Assembly: GCF_053078305.1 (NCBI RefSeq)
Contig: NZ_CP166879.1
Direction: 5' to 3' (one strand)
Length of the DNA: 64,000 bases
Shown here piece after piece: positions 18,916-24,161 of the stretch. Position numbers and translations under genes: made by a program. The notes beneath the pieces were generated by a model, which was not told the origin of the DNA, made no database searches, and saw only the letters and a list, made by a program, of their open reading frames with translations. Positions within the stretch are counted from its first letter, which is position 1. Each line of letters begins with the position of its first letter.

Positions 18916-19023
18916 TTAAATGATTAGTCCCCGGAAAAAGGCAGAATTTTCTTTTAGTGTATTAGCTCAGATGCGGACTGACATCTCAAATCAAGCGGGA
19001 ACTCATGATTCCCGCTTAACGTT

Positions 19024-19911
19024 CTATTCACCGCGCAGAATCTGGCGGAAATGGGAAACCAACGGACGTTGGTTGGCTTTATGCCAGGCTGCCCATAATT
19101 GCGTTGAATAATTCATCCACGGCAATTCACGTAATACCACCCCTTCCGGCGCATTATGACGCAGACTATGTTGAATTAAGGCCAGACCTAATCCCGCAGC
19201 GACCAGACCTAATGCCGTGAGGGGTTCACCCGCTTCCAGGCGAATATCAGGATTAAACCCGGCGTTAACACAGGCGGCGACAAAATGATCGCGAGAATGC
19301 GCATCGTCGTTATGAATCACCGCAATCCACTGCTCATCGCCAAGTTGTGACGCGACAAGGTTTTCCTCCTGCGCCAGAGGATGATTTTGCGGTAAGGCCA
19401 ACAACATTCGATCATCCAGAACCTGAATATATTCCAGATCCTGCTCGCTGTCGGTGGGCGGCGTATCGACCAGAGAAAAATCGAGACTGCGCTGGCGCAG
19501 GCCTTCAATCTGGGTAGCCGGTGGTTGGCTGTAAAGTGCGATATGCACATTCGGACGCGATACACGTAACGTACGTAGCGCCGTAGAAAGCACACCGGAA
19601 TGCATGGCGTTTTCGATATAGCCAATACACAAGCCACCATCTTCCCCCCGTCCCAGGCGTTTGCCTAACGACTCCAGGCGGTTGGCGTGTGTCAGCAACG
19701 AACGTGTTTCGGCAAGGAATGTCTGTCCATCAGCGGTCAGGCGAATGCGCTGCTGATTACGCTCAAACAGCGTCAGCCCCAGTCGTTCTTCCAGTTGTGC
19801 AATCTGGCGGCTCAGCGGCGATTGCGAGATATGTAATCGCTCGGCTGCGCGTCCCACGTGCTCTTCTTCTGCGACCACCACGAAGTACTTCAGTTGGCGT
19901 AAATCAATCAT
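19024..19911 (-). CDS. LysR-family transcriptional regulator (accessory island)
   Basis: ORF 19024..20004; start placed at the Met giving MIDLRQLKYFVVVAEEEHVGRAAERLHISQSPLSRQIAQLEE (LysR HTH); divergent from the AKR-SDR-SRPBCC operon. Confidence 0.85.
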   Translation of the reverse strand: MIDLRQLKYFVVVAEEEHVGRAAERLHISQSPLSRQIAQLEERLGLTLFERNQQRIRLTADGQTFLAETRSLLTHANRLESLGKRLGRGEDGGLCIGYIENAMHSGVLSTALRTLRVSRPNVHIALYSQPPATQIEGLRQRSLDFSLVDTPPTDSEQDLEYIQVLDDRMLLALPQNHPLAQEENLVASQLGDEQWIAVIHNDDAHSRDHFVAACVNAGFNPDIRLEAGEPLTALGLVAAGLGLALIQHSLRHNAPEGVVLRELPWMNYSTQLWAAWHKANQRPLVSHFRQILRGE

Positions 19912-19976
19912 GTTAGACCTCAAAGGACTTAAGTCAGACGAATTATGTCCTATCAAGTCACAACCTCGCAAGGTAT

Positions 19977-19992
19977 TGTGATCCACGTCACA
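19977..19992. promoter_or_regulatory. Perfect TGTGA-N6-TCACA palindrome (CRP-like core or regulator operator) in the divergent promoter region
   Basis: TGTGATCCACGTCACA read directly from the sequence between the LysR start (19911) and the AKR start (20045). Confidence 0.35.
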
Positions 19993-20044
19993 GGGCGATA
20001 GCAAAAAAACGCCCTAACCCAAACCGAATAATTGAGGACATCTT

Positions 20045-21055
20045 ATGAGCATTAAAAATTTACTCCCCGGCAAAATTGGCTTAGGCGGCGCACCACTTGG
20101 CAACATGTTCCGTGCCATTCCGGAAGAAGAGGCCCACGCCACCGTGAGCGAAGCCTGGAACCTGGGTGTGCGTTACTTTGATACCGCGCCGCTGTACGGC
20201 TCTGGCCTTTCTGAAATCCGCATGGGTGAAGCGCTGTCTCAGTATCCACGCGATGAATACGTTCTGAGTAGCAAAGTCGGTCGCATCATGCTGGACGAAA
20301 TGGAAGATCCGGCAAAACGGGATTTCGGTGAAAAAGGTGGCCTGTTCGAACACGGCCTGAAAAACAAAATTCTGAATGACTACTCTGCTGACGCCACTCT
20401 GCGCTCGATTGAAGACAGCCTGAAACGCCTGAAAACAGACCGTCTGGATATTGTCTGGATCCACGACCCGGCGCAGGACTTCTACGGTGACAGCTGGCTG
20501 GAGCAGTTCAACATTGCCCGTACCGGTGCATTTCGTGCGCTGACGCGTTTGCGTGACGAAGGTGTGATTAAAGCCTGGGGACTGGGTGTGAACCGCGTCG
20601 AACCTTGCGAACTGACGCTGGCGCTGGACGAACCGAAGCCGGATGCGTTCCTGCTGGCGGGGCGTTATTCCCTGCTGGATCACGAACGTGCGCTGCAACG
20701 CCTGATGCCAGAAGCACTGGAACAGAACGTGGATATCGTTGTGGGCGGTCCATACAGCTCTGGCGTACTGGCAGGCGGCGAGCACTTTGAATATCAGAAA
20801 GCCTCTGCGGCCATCCAGCAGAAAGTGGCGCAAATTAACGCCATTGCCACACGTTTCAATGTGAACGTTAAAGCGGCTGCGCTGCAGTTCGCGCTGGCAA
20901 ACCCGGCCGTTGCAGCGGTTATTCCTGGCTCCAGCCGTCCTGGTCGTATGGCAGAAGATCTGGCTGCACTGAATGCGCCTGTTCCGGCTGAATTCTGGGC
21001 AGAAATGCGCCGTCAAAATCTGGTTGCGGAAAACGCTCCGCTGCCGACCCGTTAA
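20045..21055 (+). CDS. Aldo-keto reductase family oxidoreductase (accessory island)
   Basis: 336-aa ORF with AKR-like N-terminus (GLGGAPLGNMF...YFDTAPLYGSG...); RBS GAGGA upstream. Confidence 0.85.
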   Translation: MSIKNLLPGKIGLGGAPLGNMFRAIPEEEAHATVSEAWNLGVRYFDTAPLYGSGLSEIRMGEALSQYPRDEYVLSSKVGRIMLDEMEDPAKRDFGEKGGLFEHGLKNKILNDYSADATLRSIEDSLKRLKTDRLDIVWIHDPAQDFYGDSWLEQFNIARTGAFRALTRLRDEGVIKAWGLGVNRVEPCELTLALDEPKPDAFLLAGRYSLLDHERALQRLMPEALEQNVDIVVGGPYSSGVLAGGEHFEYQKASAAIQQKVAQINAIATRFNVNVKAAALQFALANPAVAAVIPGSSRPGRMAEDLAALNAPVPAEFWAEMRRQNLVAENAPLPTR

Positions 21056-21074
21056 TCAACCAGGTGAGAAAACG

Positions 21075-21872
21075 ATGAAACTGGATCTGACAGGTAAAGT
21101 CGCGGTGGTCAGCGGCTCAACCTCCGGCATTGGGCAGGGTATCGCCGCCGGACTGGCAAAAGCAGGCGCAACGGTGGTTGTCGTCGGCCGTAAACAGAGC
21201 GGCGTTGATGACGCCATGGCTGCGATTGCGGCACAAACTCCCACAGCGTCACTGCGCGGCGTGGTGGCCGATCTCAGCACCGAAGACGGCGTGGCTGCGC
21301 TGATCGCTGCAGTCCCAACGGCTGATGTGCTGGTCAATAATCTGGGCATTTTTAACGATAAAGATTTCTTTAGCGTTCCGGATGATGAGTGGATGCACTT
21401 CTATAACGTCAACGTCCTCTCCGGCGTTCGTCTGGCGCGTCACTATGCGCCAGGCATGACGGAACAGGGCTGGGGGCGGATTATCTTTGTCTCGTCCGAA
21501 TCCGGCGTGGCAATCCCTGGCGACATGATCAACTACGGCGTCACCAAAGCCGCGAATCTGGCGGTTTCTCATGGTCTGGCGAAACGACTGGCGGGGACCG
21601 GTGTGACCGTCAACGCCATTCTGCCAGGGCCAACCTTTACCGATGGCCTGAAAGAGATGCTGGCGGATGCCGCTGCACAATCGGGACGCAGTGCGCGTGA
21701 ACAGGCCGATGAATTTGTTAAAACCTCGCGTCCGAGCTCCATCATCCAGCGTGCGGCAGATGTGGAAGAAGTGGCGAATCTGGCGGTTTATCTCGCGTCA
21801 CCGCTTTCCTCGGCAACCACAGGGGCAGCCCTGCGCGTCGATGGCGGCGTCGTCGACACCCTGACAATGTAA
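21075..21872 (+). CDS. Short-chain dehydrogenase/reductase (accessory island)
   Basis: ORF 20973..21872; start at MKLDLTGKVAVVSGSTSGIGQGIA (Rossmann TGxxxGIG) with a YxxxK catalytic motif (YGVTK); 19 bp after the AKR gene. Confidence 0.85.
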   Translation: MKLDLTGKVAVVSGSTSGIGQGIAAGLAKAGATVVVVGRKQSGVDDAMAAIAAQTPTASLRGVVADLSTEDGVAALIAAVPTADVLVNNLGIFNDKDFFSVPDDEWMHFYNVNVLSGVRLARHYAPGMTEQGWGRIIFVSSESGVAIPGDMINYGVTKAANLAVSHGLAKRLAGTGVTVNAILPGPTFTDGLKEMLADAAAQSGRSAREQADEFVKTSRPSSIIQRAADVEEVANLAVYLASPLSSATTGAALRVDGGVVDTLTM

Positions 21873-21897
21873 CCCTATAAATTAAGAGAAAATTATC

Positions 21898-22314
21898 ATG
21901 GCTAAAACAACTGTATCGATCGAAATTCCGGCTTCTGGCGACGCCGTATGGCAATTGATGGGCGGCTTTGATGCGCTGCCAGACTGGCTACCATTCATCC
22001 CGAAAAGCGTGGTGACAGAAGGCGGTCGCGTTCGTTCGCTGACAACCTCTGACGGCGGCACTGTGGTTGAACGTCTGGAAGCGTTTGATAACCGTCAACG
22101 CAGTTATACCTATTCCATTATTCAGGCACCGTTCCCGGTGGTGGATTACCTCTCCACCATTACCGTTCATGAAACCGCCGACAGCCAGGTTTCCCGTGTG
22201 GAATGGTTCGGTGAATTCACCCCGGTGAATGTGACGAACGAAGAGGCCGAGGCGCTGTTTACCGGCATCTATCGGGATGGACTCAAGGCGCTTAAGGACA
22301 ACTTTGTTGCCTGA
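21898..22314 (+). CDS. SRPBCC / Bet v1-like (polyketide cyclase-type) small protein
   Basis: 138-aa ORF 25 bp after the SDR gene; size and composition fit SRPBCC ligand-binding proteins; assignment is by resemblance only. Confidence 0.6.
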   Translation: MAKTTVSIEIPASGDAVWQLMGGFDALPDWLPFIPKSVVTEGGRVRSLTTSDGGTVVERLEAFDNRQRSYTYSIIQAPFPVVDYLSTITVHETADSQVSRVEWFGEFTPVNVTNEEAEALFTGIYRDGLKALKDNFVA

Positions 22315-22471
22315 TGCGATCGACAGGCGTCGGCACGTCCGGCGTCTGATTATTAACAAAAACAGAATAGTCTATTGTCATTTGTATCATTTATGTTATC
22401 AGACAGCAGGCGTATTCTCTCCCCATCGCGTTAATAAACGCCAAACAATTAAGACACTCTGGAATATAAAC

Positions 22472-22684
22472 ATGAAAACGATCATCGCAATTTTTACCGC
22501 TTCTCTTTTCTCTGTCGCGGCGTTTAACGCATCGGCGCAAAGCGTGACAGCAACCGGTACAACACTGGATTCCGCTGAAGCGGTTATTGCGCAGAAAGCG
22601 AAAGAGATGAACGCCTCTGAATACAAAATTACCAGCGCTCGCATGGGCAATACCGTCACCATGAGTGCCGAACTGTATAAATAA
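22472..22684 (+). CDS. DUF1471 (YhcN/YdgH-like) small periplasmic stress protein
   Basis: 70-aa ORF with signal peptide MKTIIAIFTASLFSVAAFNASA and the conserved C-terminal motif of the family (...KITSARMGNTVTMSAELYK). Confidence 0.75.
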   Translation: MKTIIAIFTASLFSVAAFNASAQSVTATGTTLDSAEAVIAQKAKEMNASEYKITSARMGNTVTMSAELYK

Positions 22685-22708
22685 TCGCGCGAGGAACCCA
22701 TTACGTAA

Positions 22709-23039
22709 TTTGCTAAATATGCGCTGAATGCGTTGCCATTAATAAACCGTATTGTACTGCCACCGATGACGCGTTCCCGCGCCGGTGCGGGTGACGTTGC
22801 GATTGGCATGATGGCGGAGTATTACGCGCAGCGCGCCAGTGCTGGACTTATCATCAGCGAAGGTACGCAAATCAGCAGAATCGCTGCGCATAATTTTCCA
22901 CGGCACGCTGATTTACTCCGGTAAATACACCAAAGCGCGCGCCGAACAGGCGCTGGCTAACGGCTGGTCGGATCTGATTGGTTTTGGTCGTCCGTATAGT
23001 GCCAGGAGCGGAAGTTGTCGAAGGGTCATAAAGAGCTAA
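22709..23039 (+). pseudogene. Decayed Old Yellow Enzyme (NemA-like) flavin oxidoreductase: N- and C-terminal fragments with an internal deletion and frameshift
   Basis: Frame A reads ...NRIVLPPMTRSRAGAGDVAIGMMAEYYAQRASAGLIISEGTQIS (like the NemA N-terminus); frame B reads ...HGTLIYSGKYTKARAEQALANGWSDLIGFGRPY (like the NemA C-terminal region); no ATG start; the middle two-thirds of the protein is missing. Confidence 0.7.
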
Positions 23040-23355
23040 ACCCCGGCATTGCTTCTCAGCTGTTTATAGCCGTTCCTGGGTACAAGTGAGCACTAAGGCG
23101 AGCATTGTTATAATCACCAACCAATCACTAGTTGTGTACAAATTCTGACCGCAAAGCGAACTCTCCGGCATGCAGGTTGGAGAAAGCACAGTTGACCTAA
23201 AATGCTCCTCCAGCCAGAAACAAAAGGTGGCCGATAATTCGAAAGCAAAAAAAGATAAAGCAGGGAATGTGCCCGCAAATTCTTAATCATATAGCCAAAC
23301 CGAGCAGCGTATGATATCCAGCCCTGATACGGGCTGGATATTAAATTTTCGCCGG

Positions 23356-23823
23356 TCAGTTATCGCAATGACCTGGCACTGCTAACTTAACTTCAGGTTT
23401 AGAAACGACGCGGATACCTTCGCTTTCGGATACCTGTTCAAGTCCAGCCCCACCAACAAAAACGCCCATTTTGATGTACTGGCGAACAAAGTAGTTTTTC
23501 CCGGACGTGACATTGAGTGTCAGATTATTAGGTGAAAACTCGGATTCAGTTCCCAGCGTATGTGGTTGGCTGGTCGATATTTGCTGATAGAAAAAGACTC
23601 TGTCAGCCGTTTCACCAAGACAACGGCCGTCAAGATAAACATCCTTTTTTAACGCTTTACCAACAAAGCTGTCTCTGTAAACGTATAGACCGGCTTTGCC
23701 ATTTTCCGGGACCGGGAAAGACTTAGCTGTCTCGTTTTCAGCATTACTGCCCAGAGGAACCGACGCACACCCCCCCAGAAGCACTGAGGAAATAATGACT
23801 GCGCCAAATAAAATTTTATTCAT
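23356..23823 (-). CDS. Lipoprotein (DUF2846-like)
   Basis: 155-aa ORF with lipobox (MNKILFGAVIISSVLLGGC-ASVP). Confidence 0.8.
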   Translation of the reverse strand: MNKILFGAVIISSVLLGGCASVPLGSNAENETAKSFPVPENGKAGLYVYRDSFVGKALKKDVYLDGRCLGETADRVFFYQQISTSQPHTLGTESEFSPNNLTLNVTSGKNYFVRQYIKMGVFVGGAGLEQVSESEGIRVVSKPEVKLAVPGHCDN

Positions 23824-23949
23824 TGAATTCTCATGGAGTTAAGAAAATCGCCAAATGAGAATAAACTTATTTTACACTTATGTCATTAAAGGAGGCATTG
23901 CTTCACAACAACATCAATGTTCATCCCGGAACCGTCCACTTCCGCTTCT

Positions 23950-24128
23950 CGCTCAAAACGGACTGTCATATTTGATTGCATTCTGGCTACGCAACCGGTC
24001 GGTTGGAGTATGAAGTTGCTCACGAATAGCCTTAGCATCCGCAATTTCGTAGCGGGTCACCCGTACAGGTTCTTTCTAATCTCGACAGCCTCTTCCAGAG
24101 AGGTTTTCAACTCATCAAAAAAACTCAT
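23950..24128 (-). pseudogene. Remnant of a small XRE-family antitoxin-like gene (N-terminal fragment, frameshifted)
   Basis: Minus-strand ATG at 24128 gives MSFFDELKTSLEEAVEIRKNLYG then a stop; a shifted frame continues RVTRYEIADAKAIREQL...; resembles the N-terminal region of COG2944-type HTH antitoxins; it sits 33 bp from the nadR stop. Confidence 0.4.
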
Positions 24129-24161
24129 TTTATACCTCGCCTTTGAGCAGTTTCATCACGG

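What the first reader, a model, noticed from the sequence alone, without database searches (positions are those of the whole stretch)
22709..23039. NemA-like Old Yellow Enzyme gene reduced to two fused fragments
Two reading frames carry clear OYE homology: an N-terminal region resembling residues about 5-63 of NemA, and a C-terminal region resembling residues about 290-335. They are joined over about 330 bp with no start codon. About two-thirds of the gene has been lost by internal deletion. This is ongoing gene decay within the island, and suggests the island once held a fourth reductase.
Basis: partly seen in the sequence, partly recalled or inferred. Interest (0 to 1): 0.35.

Follow-up and report, generated by a model that had tools for sequence, protein, structure and literature searches.

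The report
Dead remnant of an ene-reductase gene
This is the broken leftover of an Old Yellow Enzyme (flavin ene-reductase) gene inside an E. coli accessory gene cassette: an ordinary pseudogene, already flagged in public annotation, whose intact copy survives in sister Escherichia species.

Summary
Window 22703-23004 is a relic of a 365-codon Old Yellow Enzyme (OYE) gene. A tblastn search with an intact orthologue gives E=5.6e-27 for residues 3-59 and E=2.2e-20 for residues 275-337, in two different frames.

An intact copy sits in the same six-gene cassette (LysR-AKR-SDR-SRPBCC-DUF1471-OYE), 97.8% identical in DNA, in cryptic-clade Escherichia (named E. marmotae/E. ruysiae). Comparison with it shows four lesions:
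- The start codon changed from ATG to ACG.
- Codon 2 changed from TTA to TAA.
- A 686-bp deletion removed codons 59-287, including the catalytic His/Asn/Tyr residues, and shifted the frame. The junction is at 22876|22877.
- The last ~110 bp are missing.

The first three lesions are also present in the four other E. coli copies I aligned. The deletion junction is spanned in one piece in all 60 carrier genomes sampled, and none of the 482 carriers (of 5,426 complete E. coli genomes) holds the deleted middle. About 441 carriers are cut back further.

Substitutions in the relic look neutral (2 synonymous, 13 non-synonymous). The five neighbouring genes are under purifying selection (63 synonymous, 5 non-synonymous; p=1.5e-9).

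RefSeq already annotates the relic as "alkene reductase, incomplete". The gene is closer to Shewanella SYE1 than to NemA. By my count it would be the cassette's third reductase, not its fourth. No intact copy was found at the ettA-nadR site. This is an ordinary, non-functional pseudogene of low interest.

The parts
22691..22696 (+). Former ribosome-binding site GAGGAA of the OYE gene, 6 nt upstream of the former start codon
   Evidence: Identical to the sequence upstream of the intact ATG in L019. That it functions as an RBS is inferred from sequence.
22703..22705 (+). Mutated start codon, ACG (ATG in the intact orthologue)
   Evidence: Codon-by-codon comparison with L019 8001-8003. The same ACG is present in E. 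coli loci L001, L002 and L085.
22706..22708 (+). Premature stop at codon 2, TAA (TTA, Leu, in the intact orthologue)
   Evidence: Shared by L001, L002 and L085.
22703..22876 (+). N-terminal fragment: codons 1-58 of the 365-codon OYE gene
   Evidence: 174 nt collinear with L019 8001-8174, with 8 codon differences, 7 of them non-synonymous. Pfam Oxidored_FMN E=1.5e-7. SYE1 residues 9-65, E=2.2e-17.
22876..22877 (+). Junction of the 686-bp internal deletion (L019 8175-8860, codons 59-287). It shifts the frame and shows no microhomology.
   Evidence: blastn breakpoints against 20 or more intact orthologues all fall at 22875/22876 on the left and 22877-22887 on the right. The deleted part contains H183/N186/Y188.
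22877..23004 (+). C-terminal fragment: third base of codon 287 to codon 329/330, read in the next frame
   Evidence: 128 nt, 94.5% identical to L019 8861-8988. 1 synonymous and 6 non-synonymous codon changes. SYE1 residues 286-329, E=9e-9.
23005..23017 (+). 3' truncation point. OYE homology stops here and about 110 bp (36 codons plus the stop) of the gene are missing. The 13 nt that follow are shared with the E. coli wHTH+TauE-type locus but are not OYE-derived.
   Evidence: Alignment with L019, L001 and L002.
22733..22924 (+). Chance ORF (63 codons, TTG start) across the N-terminal fragment. Some GenBank records call it as a gene.
   Evidence: L097 lists it, with a PF00724 hit.
22839..23039 (+). 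Chance ORF (66 codons, GTG start) across the C-terminal fragment and into unrelated DNA. It is annotated 'hypothetical protein' or 'oxidoreductase' in E. coli records.
   Evidence: cluster 2: length variants of 59-66 aa.
22472..22684 (+). Intact DUF1471 (YdgH/BhsA/McbA-family) gene. It is the conserved upstream neighbour and probable operon partner of the OYE gene.
   Evidence: Pfam PF07338, E=2.5e-11. It lies directly upstream of the intact OYE gene in 14 loci (L003-L015 and L019; Pseudocitrobacter, Kluyvera, Citrobacter amalonaticus, Trabulsiella, Yokenella and the cryptic-clade Escherichia locus).
18993..22702 (.). Rest of the cassette: LysR regulator (19024-19911, minus strand), aldo/keto reductase (20045-21055), SDR (21075-21872) and SRPBCC (21898-22314), all intact
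   Evidence: Pfam. RefSeq annotation of the homologous E. coli loci. 97.8% identical to L019. 63 synonymous against 5 non-synonymous changes.

Best explanation
The interval is a non-functional relic (pseudogene) of a class-I Old Yellow Enzyme, an FMN-dependent alkene reductase. That gene was the last gene of a six-gene accessory cassette, LysR / AKR-SDR-SRPBCC-DUF1471-OYE.

In the E. coli version of the cassette, which lies between ettA and nadR, the gene carries four lesions:
1. Start codon ATG changed to ACG.
2. Codon 2 TTA changed to TAA.
3. A 686-bp frame-shifting deletion of codons 59-287. This removed most of the TIM barrel, including the His-Asn-Tyr catalytic residues.
4. Loss of the last 110 bp or so, at the junction with a variable cargo segment.

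These lesions arose once, before the cassette diversified within E. coli. Since then the relic has drifted neutrally and, in most carriers, has been trimmed further by a microhomology-mediated deletion.

It makes no enzyme. The short ORFs across it are chance reading frames. Shown here: the homology, the lesions, that they are shared, and the substitution pattern. Inferred: the single origin, and the absence of any residual function.
For: Homology:
- (E down to 5.6e-27).

Intact reference in the same cassette:
- L019 8001-9098 is a 365-aa ORF with an ATG start. Its cassette is 97.8% identical to window 18993-22876.
- Eight more loci (L087-L094) carry the identical architecture.
- Yokenella has the full cassette at 82% identity.

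Lesions mapped base by base:
-.
- Catalytic H183/N186/Y188 lie within deleted codons 59-287.

Lesions are shared:
- L001, L002 and L085 all have ACG, TAA and the same junction.
- The 60 evenly sampled genomes out of 482 E. coli carriers all span the junction in a single BLAST piece.
- No complete E. coli genome (0 of 5,426) contains the deleted middle. With the intact gene plus its downstream flank as query, no match covers more than 16% of it.

Relaxed constraint (window against L019):
- The relic shows 2 synonymous and 13 non-synonymous codon changes, and 17 differences in 302 nt.
- The five neighbouring genes show 63 synonymous and 5 non-synonymous changes, and 68 differences in 3,327 nt.
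- Fisher tests give p=1.5e-9 and p=5e-4.

Continuing erosion:
- About 441 of the 482 carriers end at window ~22946 and abut nadS/nadR. That junction has CGAA microhomology.
- One of only two differences between the window and its nearest relative over 8.5 kb falls in the relic, at 22806.

Other:
- RefSeq/PGAP already labels it 'alkene reductase, incomplete'.
- No Rfam match and no terminator in the relic.
Against: Nothing contradicts the pseudogene status. Three points remain open:
- The relic has persisted without complete removal in every E. coli lineage that carries the cassette. Its ORFs of 59-66 codons recur on hundreds of contigs, so expression of a short peptide or of a 3'-UTR cannot be excluded from sequence alone.
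- No copy with only some of the lesions was found, so the order of the events is unknown.
- No intact copy was found at the ettA-nadR site. In-situ decay is therefore not distinguished from arrival of an already damaged gene.
Confidence: 0.93

Rival explanations
1. Same relic, different history. The OYE gene was never functional at the ettA-nadR site. The cassette reached E. coli from another Escherichia or enterobacterial lineage already carrying the lesions, or the event that placed it (or its right-hand cargo) there cut off its 3' end.
For: All intact copies found lie at a different chromosomal site, yhiN | cassette | ArsP-type permease (L019 flank). At the ettA-nadR site, 0 of 5,426 complete E. 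coli genomes have the intact gene. The cassette is 97.8% identical between E. coli and L019, while the pitA-uspA chromosomal flank of L019 is only about 94% identical, which suggests lateral transfer of the cassette. The 3' truncation coincides with the left arm of an inverted repeat that brackets the variable cargo, which suggests a rearrangement at that point.
Against: The cassette's left end is clean, 31 bp beyond the LysR stop, and the former RBS and the start position are retained. That fits a complete gene having been present once. There is no direct evidence either way, because no intermediates were found.
Confidence: 0.35
2. The relic has been taken over for a new role. It might encode a micro-protein of 59-66 aa, or serve as the 3'-UTR or an sRNA of the upstream DUF1471 gene.
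For: ORFs across the relic are called in many E. coli records and occur on hundreds of contigs. No terminator is predicted between the DUF1471 stop and the relic, so read-through transcription is plausible.
Against: - The ORFs differ in length and end point between lineages (59, 60 and 66 aa; truncation points at 22946, 23004 and 23017; a 6-bp deletion in L002; a frame-fusing indel in P0001).
- Substitutions are 13 non-synonymous to 2 synonymous.
- The ORFs have weak TTG/GTG starts and I see no obvious Shine-Dalgarno sequence upstream of the TTG.
- There is no Rfam family match.
Confidence: 0.03
3. The similarity is due to chance, or the deletion is an assembly artefact.
For: None found.
Against: E-values of 5.6e-27 and 2.2e-20 within the window. 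The identical junction is present in complete E. coli genomes from many laboratories (all 60 sampled of 482 carriers) and in five further assemblies that are 99.2-99.98% identical to the window over 8.5 kb without gaps.
Confidence: 0.01

Closest known systems
SYE1 of Shewanella oneidensis (PDB 2gou, 4aws), a class-I bacterial Old Yellow Enzyme / alkene reductase
   Same: It is the best solved-structure match to both fragments (E=2.2e-17 and 9e-9) and to the intact orthologue (E=2.8e-138, aligned over residues 2-364). The active-site motif and the FMN-binding C-terminal GFGRPFIANPDL motif are conserved in the intact orthologue.
   Different: The window copy keeps only codons 1-58 and 288-329, has no start codon, and lacks every catalytic residue. 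It cannot fold into the TIM barrel.
NemA (N-ethylmaleimide reductase) of E. coli, NCBIfam NF007899
   Same: Same Pfam family (PF00724) and the same overall length.
   Different: The intact orthologue scores 396.4 bits, under the 403-bit subfamily cut-off. PDB NemA entries rank well below SYE1 (E about 1e-101 against 1e-138). It is a paralogous OYE lineage and not a second nemA.
RefSeq/PGAP pseudogene records: 'alkene reductase; incomplete; partial in the middle of a contig; missing C-terminus' (e.g. ACU5TU_RS20805, K7X33_RS23210), and the small CDS 'oxidoreductase' WP_024195856.1
   Same: Same locus and same sequence in other E. coli genomes. The pseudogene status is already recorded.
   Different: The annotations do not describe the internal deletion, the start loss or the nonsense codon. 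They also split the relic into one pseudogene and one spurious protein-coding ORF.
Generic bacterial pseudogene decay under deletional bias (background knowledge, not tested here)
   Same: Inactivating point mutations plus deletions, neutral substitution pattern, and progressive shortening in descendant lineages.
   Different: Nothing distinctive.

Membership tests
Old Yellow Enzyme family (Pfam PF00724 Oxidored_FMN) | Significant sequence match to the family model | tested here: met
   The N-terminal fragment scores 31.5 bits (cut-off 27), E=1.5e-7. The C-terminal fragment scores 15.1 bits, below the cut-off, but maps to the expected model positions 282-325. tblastn with the intact orthologue gives E=5.6e-27 and 2.2e-20. 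The relic is derived from the family.
Old Yellow Enzyme family (functional enzyme) | Complete (beta/alpha)8 barrel of about 340-400 residues in one open reading frame with a start codon | tested here: not met
   Only codons 1-58 and 288-329 of 365 remain, in two frames. The start is ACG and codon 2 is TAA.
Old Yellow Enzyme family (functional enzyme) | Catalytic His-x-x-His/Asn pair and the proton-donor Tyr (HGANGY motif) | tested here: not met
   H183/N186/Y188 of the intact orthologue lie inside deleted codons 59-287.
NemA subfamily (NCBIfam NF007899) | Score at or above the curated cut-off of 403 bits | tested here: not met
   The intact orthologue scores 396.4 bits. The fragments score 52.8 and 22 bits.
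Pseudogene (gene relic) | An intact orthologue exists in the same gene neighbourhood in relatives | tested here: met
   L019, L087-L094 and L010 carry the same LysR-AKR-SDR-SRPBCC-DUF1471-OYE order with an intact 365/366-aa ORF.
Pseudogene (gene relic) | Disabling lesions relative to the intact orthologue | tested here: met
   Start loss, a nonsense codon, a 686-bp frame-shifting deletion and a 110-bp 3' truncation.
Pseudogene (gene relic) | Relaxed selective constraint compared with the neighbours | tested here: met
   2 synonymous to 13 non-synonymous in the relic, against 63 to 5 in the five neighbours, Fisher p=1.5e-9. Divergence is 5.6% against 2.0%.
Pseudogene (gene relic) | No transcript or protein with a function | not testable with these tools
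   This needs RNA-seq, ribosome profiling or proteomics on a carrier strain.

The most novel reading that the evidence does not exclude
The 3' end of the relic may be more than a random break. It could be one arm of a palindrome of about 60 nt that acts as a swap site for small cargo segments carrying no recombinase. Two different cargos are each bracketed by the same 31-34-nt imperfect inverted repeat: the DUF2846 gene in the window, and a wHTH+TauE pair in other E. coli. The left arm of that repeat includes the last 15 nt of the OYE relic. A third cargo (GNAT) sits in the same slot. If true, the relic's persistence and its end point would reflect an uncharacterised insertion or replacement mechanism between ettA and nadR.
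Probability: 0.1. Interest if true: 0.45.

Novelty: already known. Interest (0 to 1): 0.1.

Why it matters
It matters little in itself. The practical value is in annotation. The short 'oxidoreductase' and 'hypothetical protein' ORFs of 59-66 aa called across this interval in many E. coli records are reading frames through a dead gene and should be merged into a single pseudogene feature.

The reconstruction also documents a tidy small case of stepwise gene decay. One set of lesions is shared across the E. coli copies of the cassette examined, and about 90% of carriers have been trimmed further.

It also shows that the same six-gene redox cassette occupies two different chromosomal sites in the genus. 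It is intact next to yhiN in the cryptic clades and damaged at ettA-nadR in E. coli. Together with the cassette being more similar than that chromosomal flank, this points to lateral movement of the cassette.

Tried and rejected
- **Concatenated-fragment protein search.** Searching the protein database with the two window fragments joined returned only short fragments of 155 aa or less. The high 'coverage' values there are misleading. Inspection showed most hits to be N-terminal pieces from contig ends or frameshifted genes. It was still useful, because it led to L003 and L004.
- **L003 and L004 as references.** Both carry the OYE gene after a DUF1471 gene, but both are damaged. L003 has its own deletion of about 167 bp and L004 has two frameshifts. 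I used them only to build a chimeric full-length query for the genome scan.
- **Intact copy at the ettA-nadR site.** None found in 5,426 complete E. coli genomes, nor among the contigs encoding the nearest full-length protein, which are all at yhiN.
- **Microhomology at the 686-bp deletion junction.** None.
- **RNA family, promoter and terminator signals in the relic.** No Rfam hit and nothing above shuffle expectation.
- **Is the right arm of the cargo-flanking inverted repeat nadS-derived or OYE-derived?** The NadS model matches only positions 1-44, ending near 24007. Similarity of the right arm to the OYE gene is limited to an 8-mer. Unresolved.
- **Literature search.** It returned only general OYE papers and nothing on this locus.

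Full report
**What is at the coordinates**

The interval lies directly downstream of a 70-codon DUF1471 (YdgH/BhsA/McbA-family) gene at 22472-22684. One frame from 22709 reads FAKYALNALPLINRIVLPPMTRSRAGAGDVAIGMMAEYYAQRASAGLIISEGTQIS. The next frame, from about 22878, reads ESLRIIFHGTLIYSGKYTKARAEQALANGWSDLIGFGRPY.

- The first piece passes the Pfam Oxidored_FMN cut-off (31.5 bits, E=1.5e-7, model positions 12-62).
- The second piece maps to model positions 282-325 but scores below the cut-off (15.1 bits).
- Against solved structures, both pieces hit Shewanella SYE1 best: residues 9-65 at E=2.2e-17 and residues 286-329 at E=9e-9.
- tblastn with an intact orthologue against the whole window gives E=5.6e-27 and E=2.2e-20 in two different frames. 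Nothing else scores below E=0.3.

**Genomic setting**

The window is E. coli. The DUF2846 and SRPBCC proteins and the 66-aa ORF have exact matches in NCBI records labelled E. coli. Five E. coli assemblies match the window at 99.2-99.98% over 8.5 kb without gaps.

The relic is the last element of a cassette inserted between ettA and nadR:
- LysR regulator (minus strand)
- aldo/keto reductase, 20045-21055
- SDR, 21075-21872
- SRPBCC, 21898-22314
- DUF1471
- the relic

The cassette is present in 482 of 5,426 complete E. coli genomes. K-12 has only REP elements and a shorter nadS remnant at this site. RefSeq already labels the N-terminal piece 'alkene reductase; incomplete'. It calls the C-terminal piece a small 'oxidoreductase' or 'hypothetical protein' CDS.

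**Finding the intact gene**

A protein search with the joined fragments gave only short hits. Two of them (L003, L004) showed an OYE gene immediately after a DUF1471 gene. I built a chimeric full-length query from these and scanned one genome per species.

The best syntenic hit is L019 (CP089930.1). It is labelled E. coli E69, but its pitA-uspA flank is only about 94% identical to every complete E. coli genome, so it belongs to a cryptic-clade Escherichia. Its cassette is 97.8% identical to window 18993-22876 and ends in an intact 365-codon ORF with an ATG start, at L019 8001-9098.

The nearest full-length protein cluster (P0149, 99% identical) is named alkene reductase of E. marmotae/E. ruysiae. 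All eight contigs shown carry the same six-gene order. In the six with enough flanking sequence, the cassette sits between yhiN and an ArsP-type permease gene. Yokenella regensburgei also has the whole cassette, at 82% identity. The DUF1471-OYE pair alone is conserved in Pseudocitrobacter, Kluyvera, Citrobacter amalonaticus and Trabulsiella.

**Reconstruction of the damage**

Relative to L019, the window shows four lesions:
1. ATG changed to ACG at 22703-22705. The former GAGGAA ribosome-binding site is still in place at 22691-22696.
2. Codon 2 TTA changed to TAA at 22706-22708.
3. A 686-bp deletion (L019 8175-8860, codons 59-287) with its junction at 22876|22877. It has no microhomology and shifts the frame. 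It amounts to 62% of the gene and includes the HGANGY motif (H183/N186/Y188).
4. OYE homology ends at about 23004 (codon 329/330), so about 110 bp of the 3' end are missing.

No catalytically competent product is possible.

**Age and fate of the lesions**

E. coli loci L001, L002 and L085 have the same ACG, the same TAA and the same junction. All 60 genomes sampled evenly from the 482 carriers span the junction in one piece. When the intact gene plus its downstream flank is the query, no complete E. coli genome matches more than 16% of it. The lesions therefore predate the diversification of the cassette in E. coli.

Erosion has continued since:
- About 441 carriers end at window ~22946 and run straight into the nadS remnant. 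That junction shows CGAA microhomology.
- L002 has an extra 6-bp deletion.
- The window has a private substitution at 22806, one of only two differences from its closest relative over 8.5 kb.

**Selection**

I compared the window with L019.

| Region | Synonymous codon changes | Non-synonymous codon changes | Nucleotide differences |
|---|---|---|---|
| Five intact cassette genes | 63 | 5 | 68 in 3,327 nt |
| Relic | 2 | 13 | 17 in 302 nt |

Fisher tests give p=1.5e-9 for the codon classes and p=5e-4 for divergence. The neighbours are maintained by selection and the relic is drifting. No Rfam family, promoter excess or terminator lies in the relic.

**Family placement**

The intact orthologue is a class-I bacterial OYE.

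| Comparison | Score |
|---|---|
| SYE1 (PDB) | E=2.8e-138 |
| NemA and PETN reductase structures (PDB) | E about 1e-100 |
| NCBIfam NemA subfamily model | 396.4 bits (cut-off 403) |

'OYE-family alkene reductase, SYE1-like' is the accurate name. 'NemA-like' is only approximately right.

- The boundaries are 22703-23004.
- There is an additional 3' truncation, and a nonsense codon at codon 2.
- The lesions are old and shared, not recent.
- The gene would be the third oxidoreductase in the cassette, not the fourth.
- It is SYE1-like and not NemA proper.
- No intact copy is known at this exact chromosomal site, so the gene may have arrived already damaged.

**Unresolved side observation**

The DNA between the relic and the nadS remnant differs between lineages:

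| Lineage | Cargo |
|---|---|
| Window lineage | DUF2846 lipoprotein gene |
| L001 | GNAT acetyltransferase |
| L002, L100, L101 | wHTH + TauE pair |

The breakpoints are nearly the same in all three: 23004-23017 on the left and 23938 on the right. In the window and in L100 the cargo is bracketed by the same imperfect inverted repeat of 31-34 nt (77% and 74% complementary). Its left arm includes the last 15 nt of the relic. I could not decide whether this marks an insertion hot spot or a by-product of the rearrangement that truncated the gene.

**Overall**

This is a real, correctly read, but ordinary pseudogene that is already annotated.

Noticed in passing
window 22990-23020 and 23933-23963; L100 4295-4328 and 5809-5842: An imperfect inverted repeat of 31-34 nt (77% and 74% complementary) brackets the variable cargo next to the relic. 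It occurs in two lineages with different cargos (DUF2846; wHTH+TauE). The left arm overlaps the last 15 nt of the OYE relic. Without the cargo, the two arms would form a palindrome of about 60 nt.
   Followed up: partly
window 23018-23937 (DUF2846 lipoprotein gene at 23356-23823, minus strand): This cargo segment is absent from the chromosomes of all 5,426 complete E. coli genomes. The only match is a 72%-identical DUF2846 gene on a small pig-isolate plasmid. It does recur, at the same position, in at least 24 E. coli contigs of the window's lineage.
   Followed up: partly
L019 4291-9098; L087-L094: The same six-gene cassette, with the OYE gene intact, sits at a different chromosomal site (between yhiN and an ArsP-type permease gene) in cryptic-clade Escherichia. 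The cassette is 97.8% identical to the E. coli copy, while the flanking pitA-uspA genes are about 94% identical. This suggests lateral movement of the cassette within the genus.
   Followed up: partly
window 22472-22684 plus the relic; L003-L015, L019: A DUF1471 (YdgH/BhsA/McbA-family) gene lies immediately upstream of this OYE gene (intergenic gap 18 to about 95 bp) in 14 enterobacterial loci (L003-L015 and L019, about six genera). This suggests a conserved two-gene operon that links a periplasmic stress protein with a cytoplasmic ene-reductase.
   Followed up: partly
L003 8001-8934 (GCA_027681865.1); also proteins P0017 and P0025: The same OYE lineage has been damaged independently elsewhere. 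L003 has its own frame-shifting deletion of about 167 bp that removes the HGANGY active-site motif. P0017 and P0025 are unrelated short ORFs that join N-terminal and C-terminal OYE sequence after internal deletions.
   Followed up: partly
L002 5161-5915 (E. coli E300010); L103 1-866 (E. coli 2012C-4221): Other genes of the cassette are decaying in individual strains. A deletion of about 475 bp (window 21617-22090) fuses the SDR and SRPBCC genes in E300010. The aldo/keto reductase is frameshifted in 2012C-4221.
   Followed up: no
window 23938-24161: The nadS remnant next to nadR matches only NadS model positions 1-44 of 94, split over two frames. K-12 retains even less of it (from window ~24025) and has REP elements instead of the cassette.
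   Followed up: partly
window 23314-23341: A perfect 11-bp inverted repeat (ATATCCAGCCC/GGGCTGGATAT, 6-nt loop) lies just downstream of the DUF2846 gene. It is a likely transcription-terminator hairpin that the consensus scan did not report.
   Followed up: no
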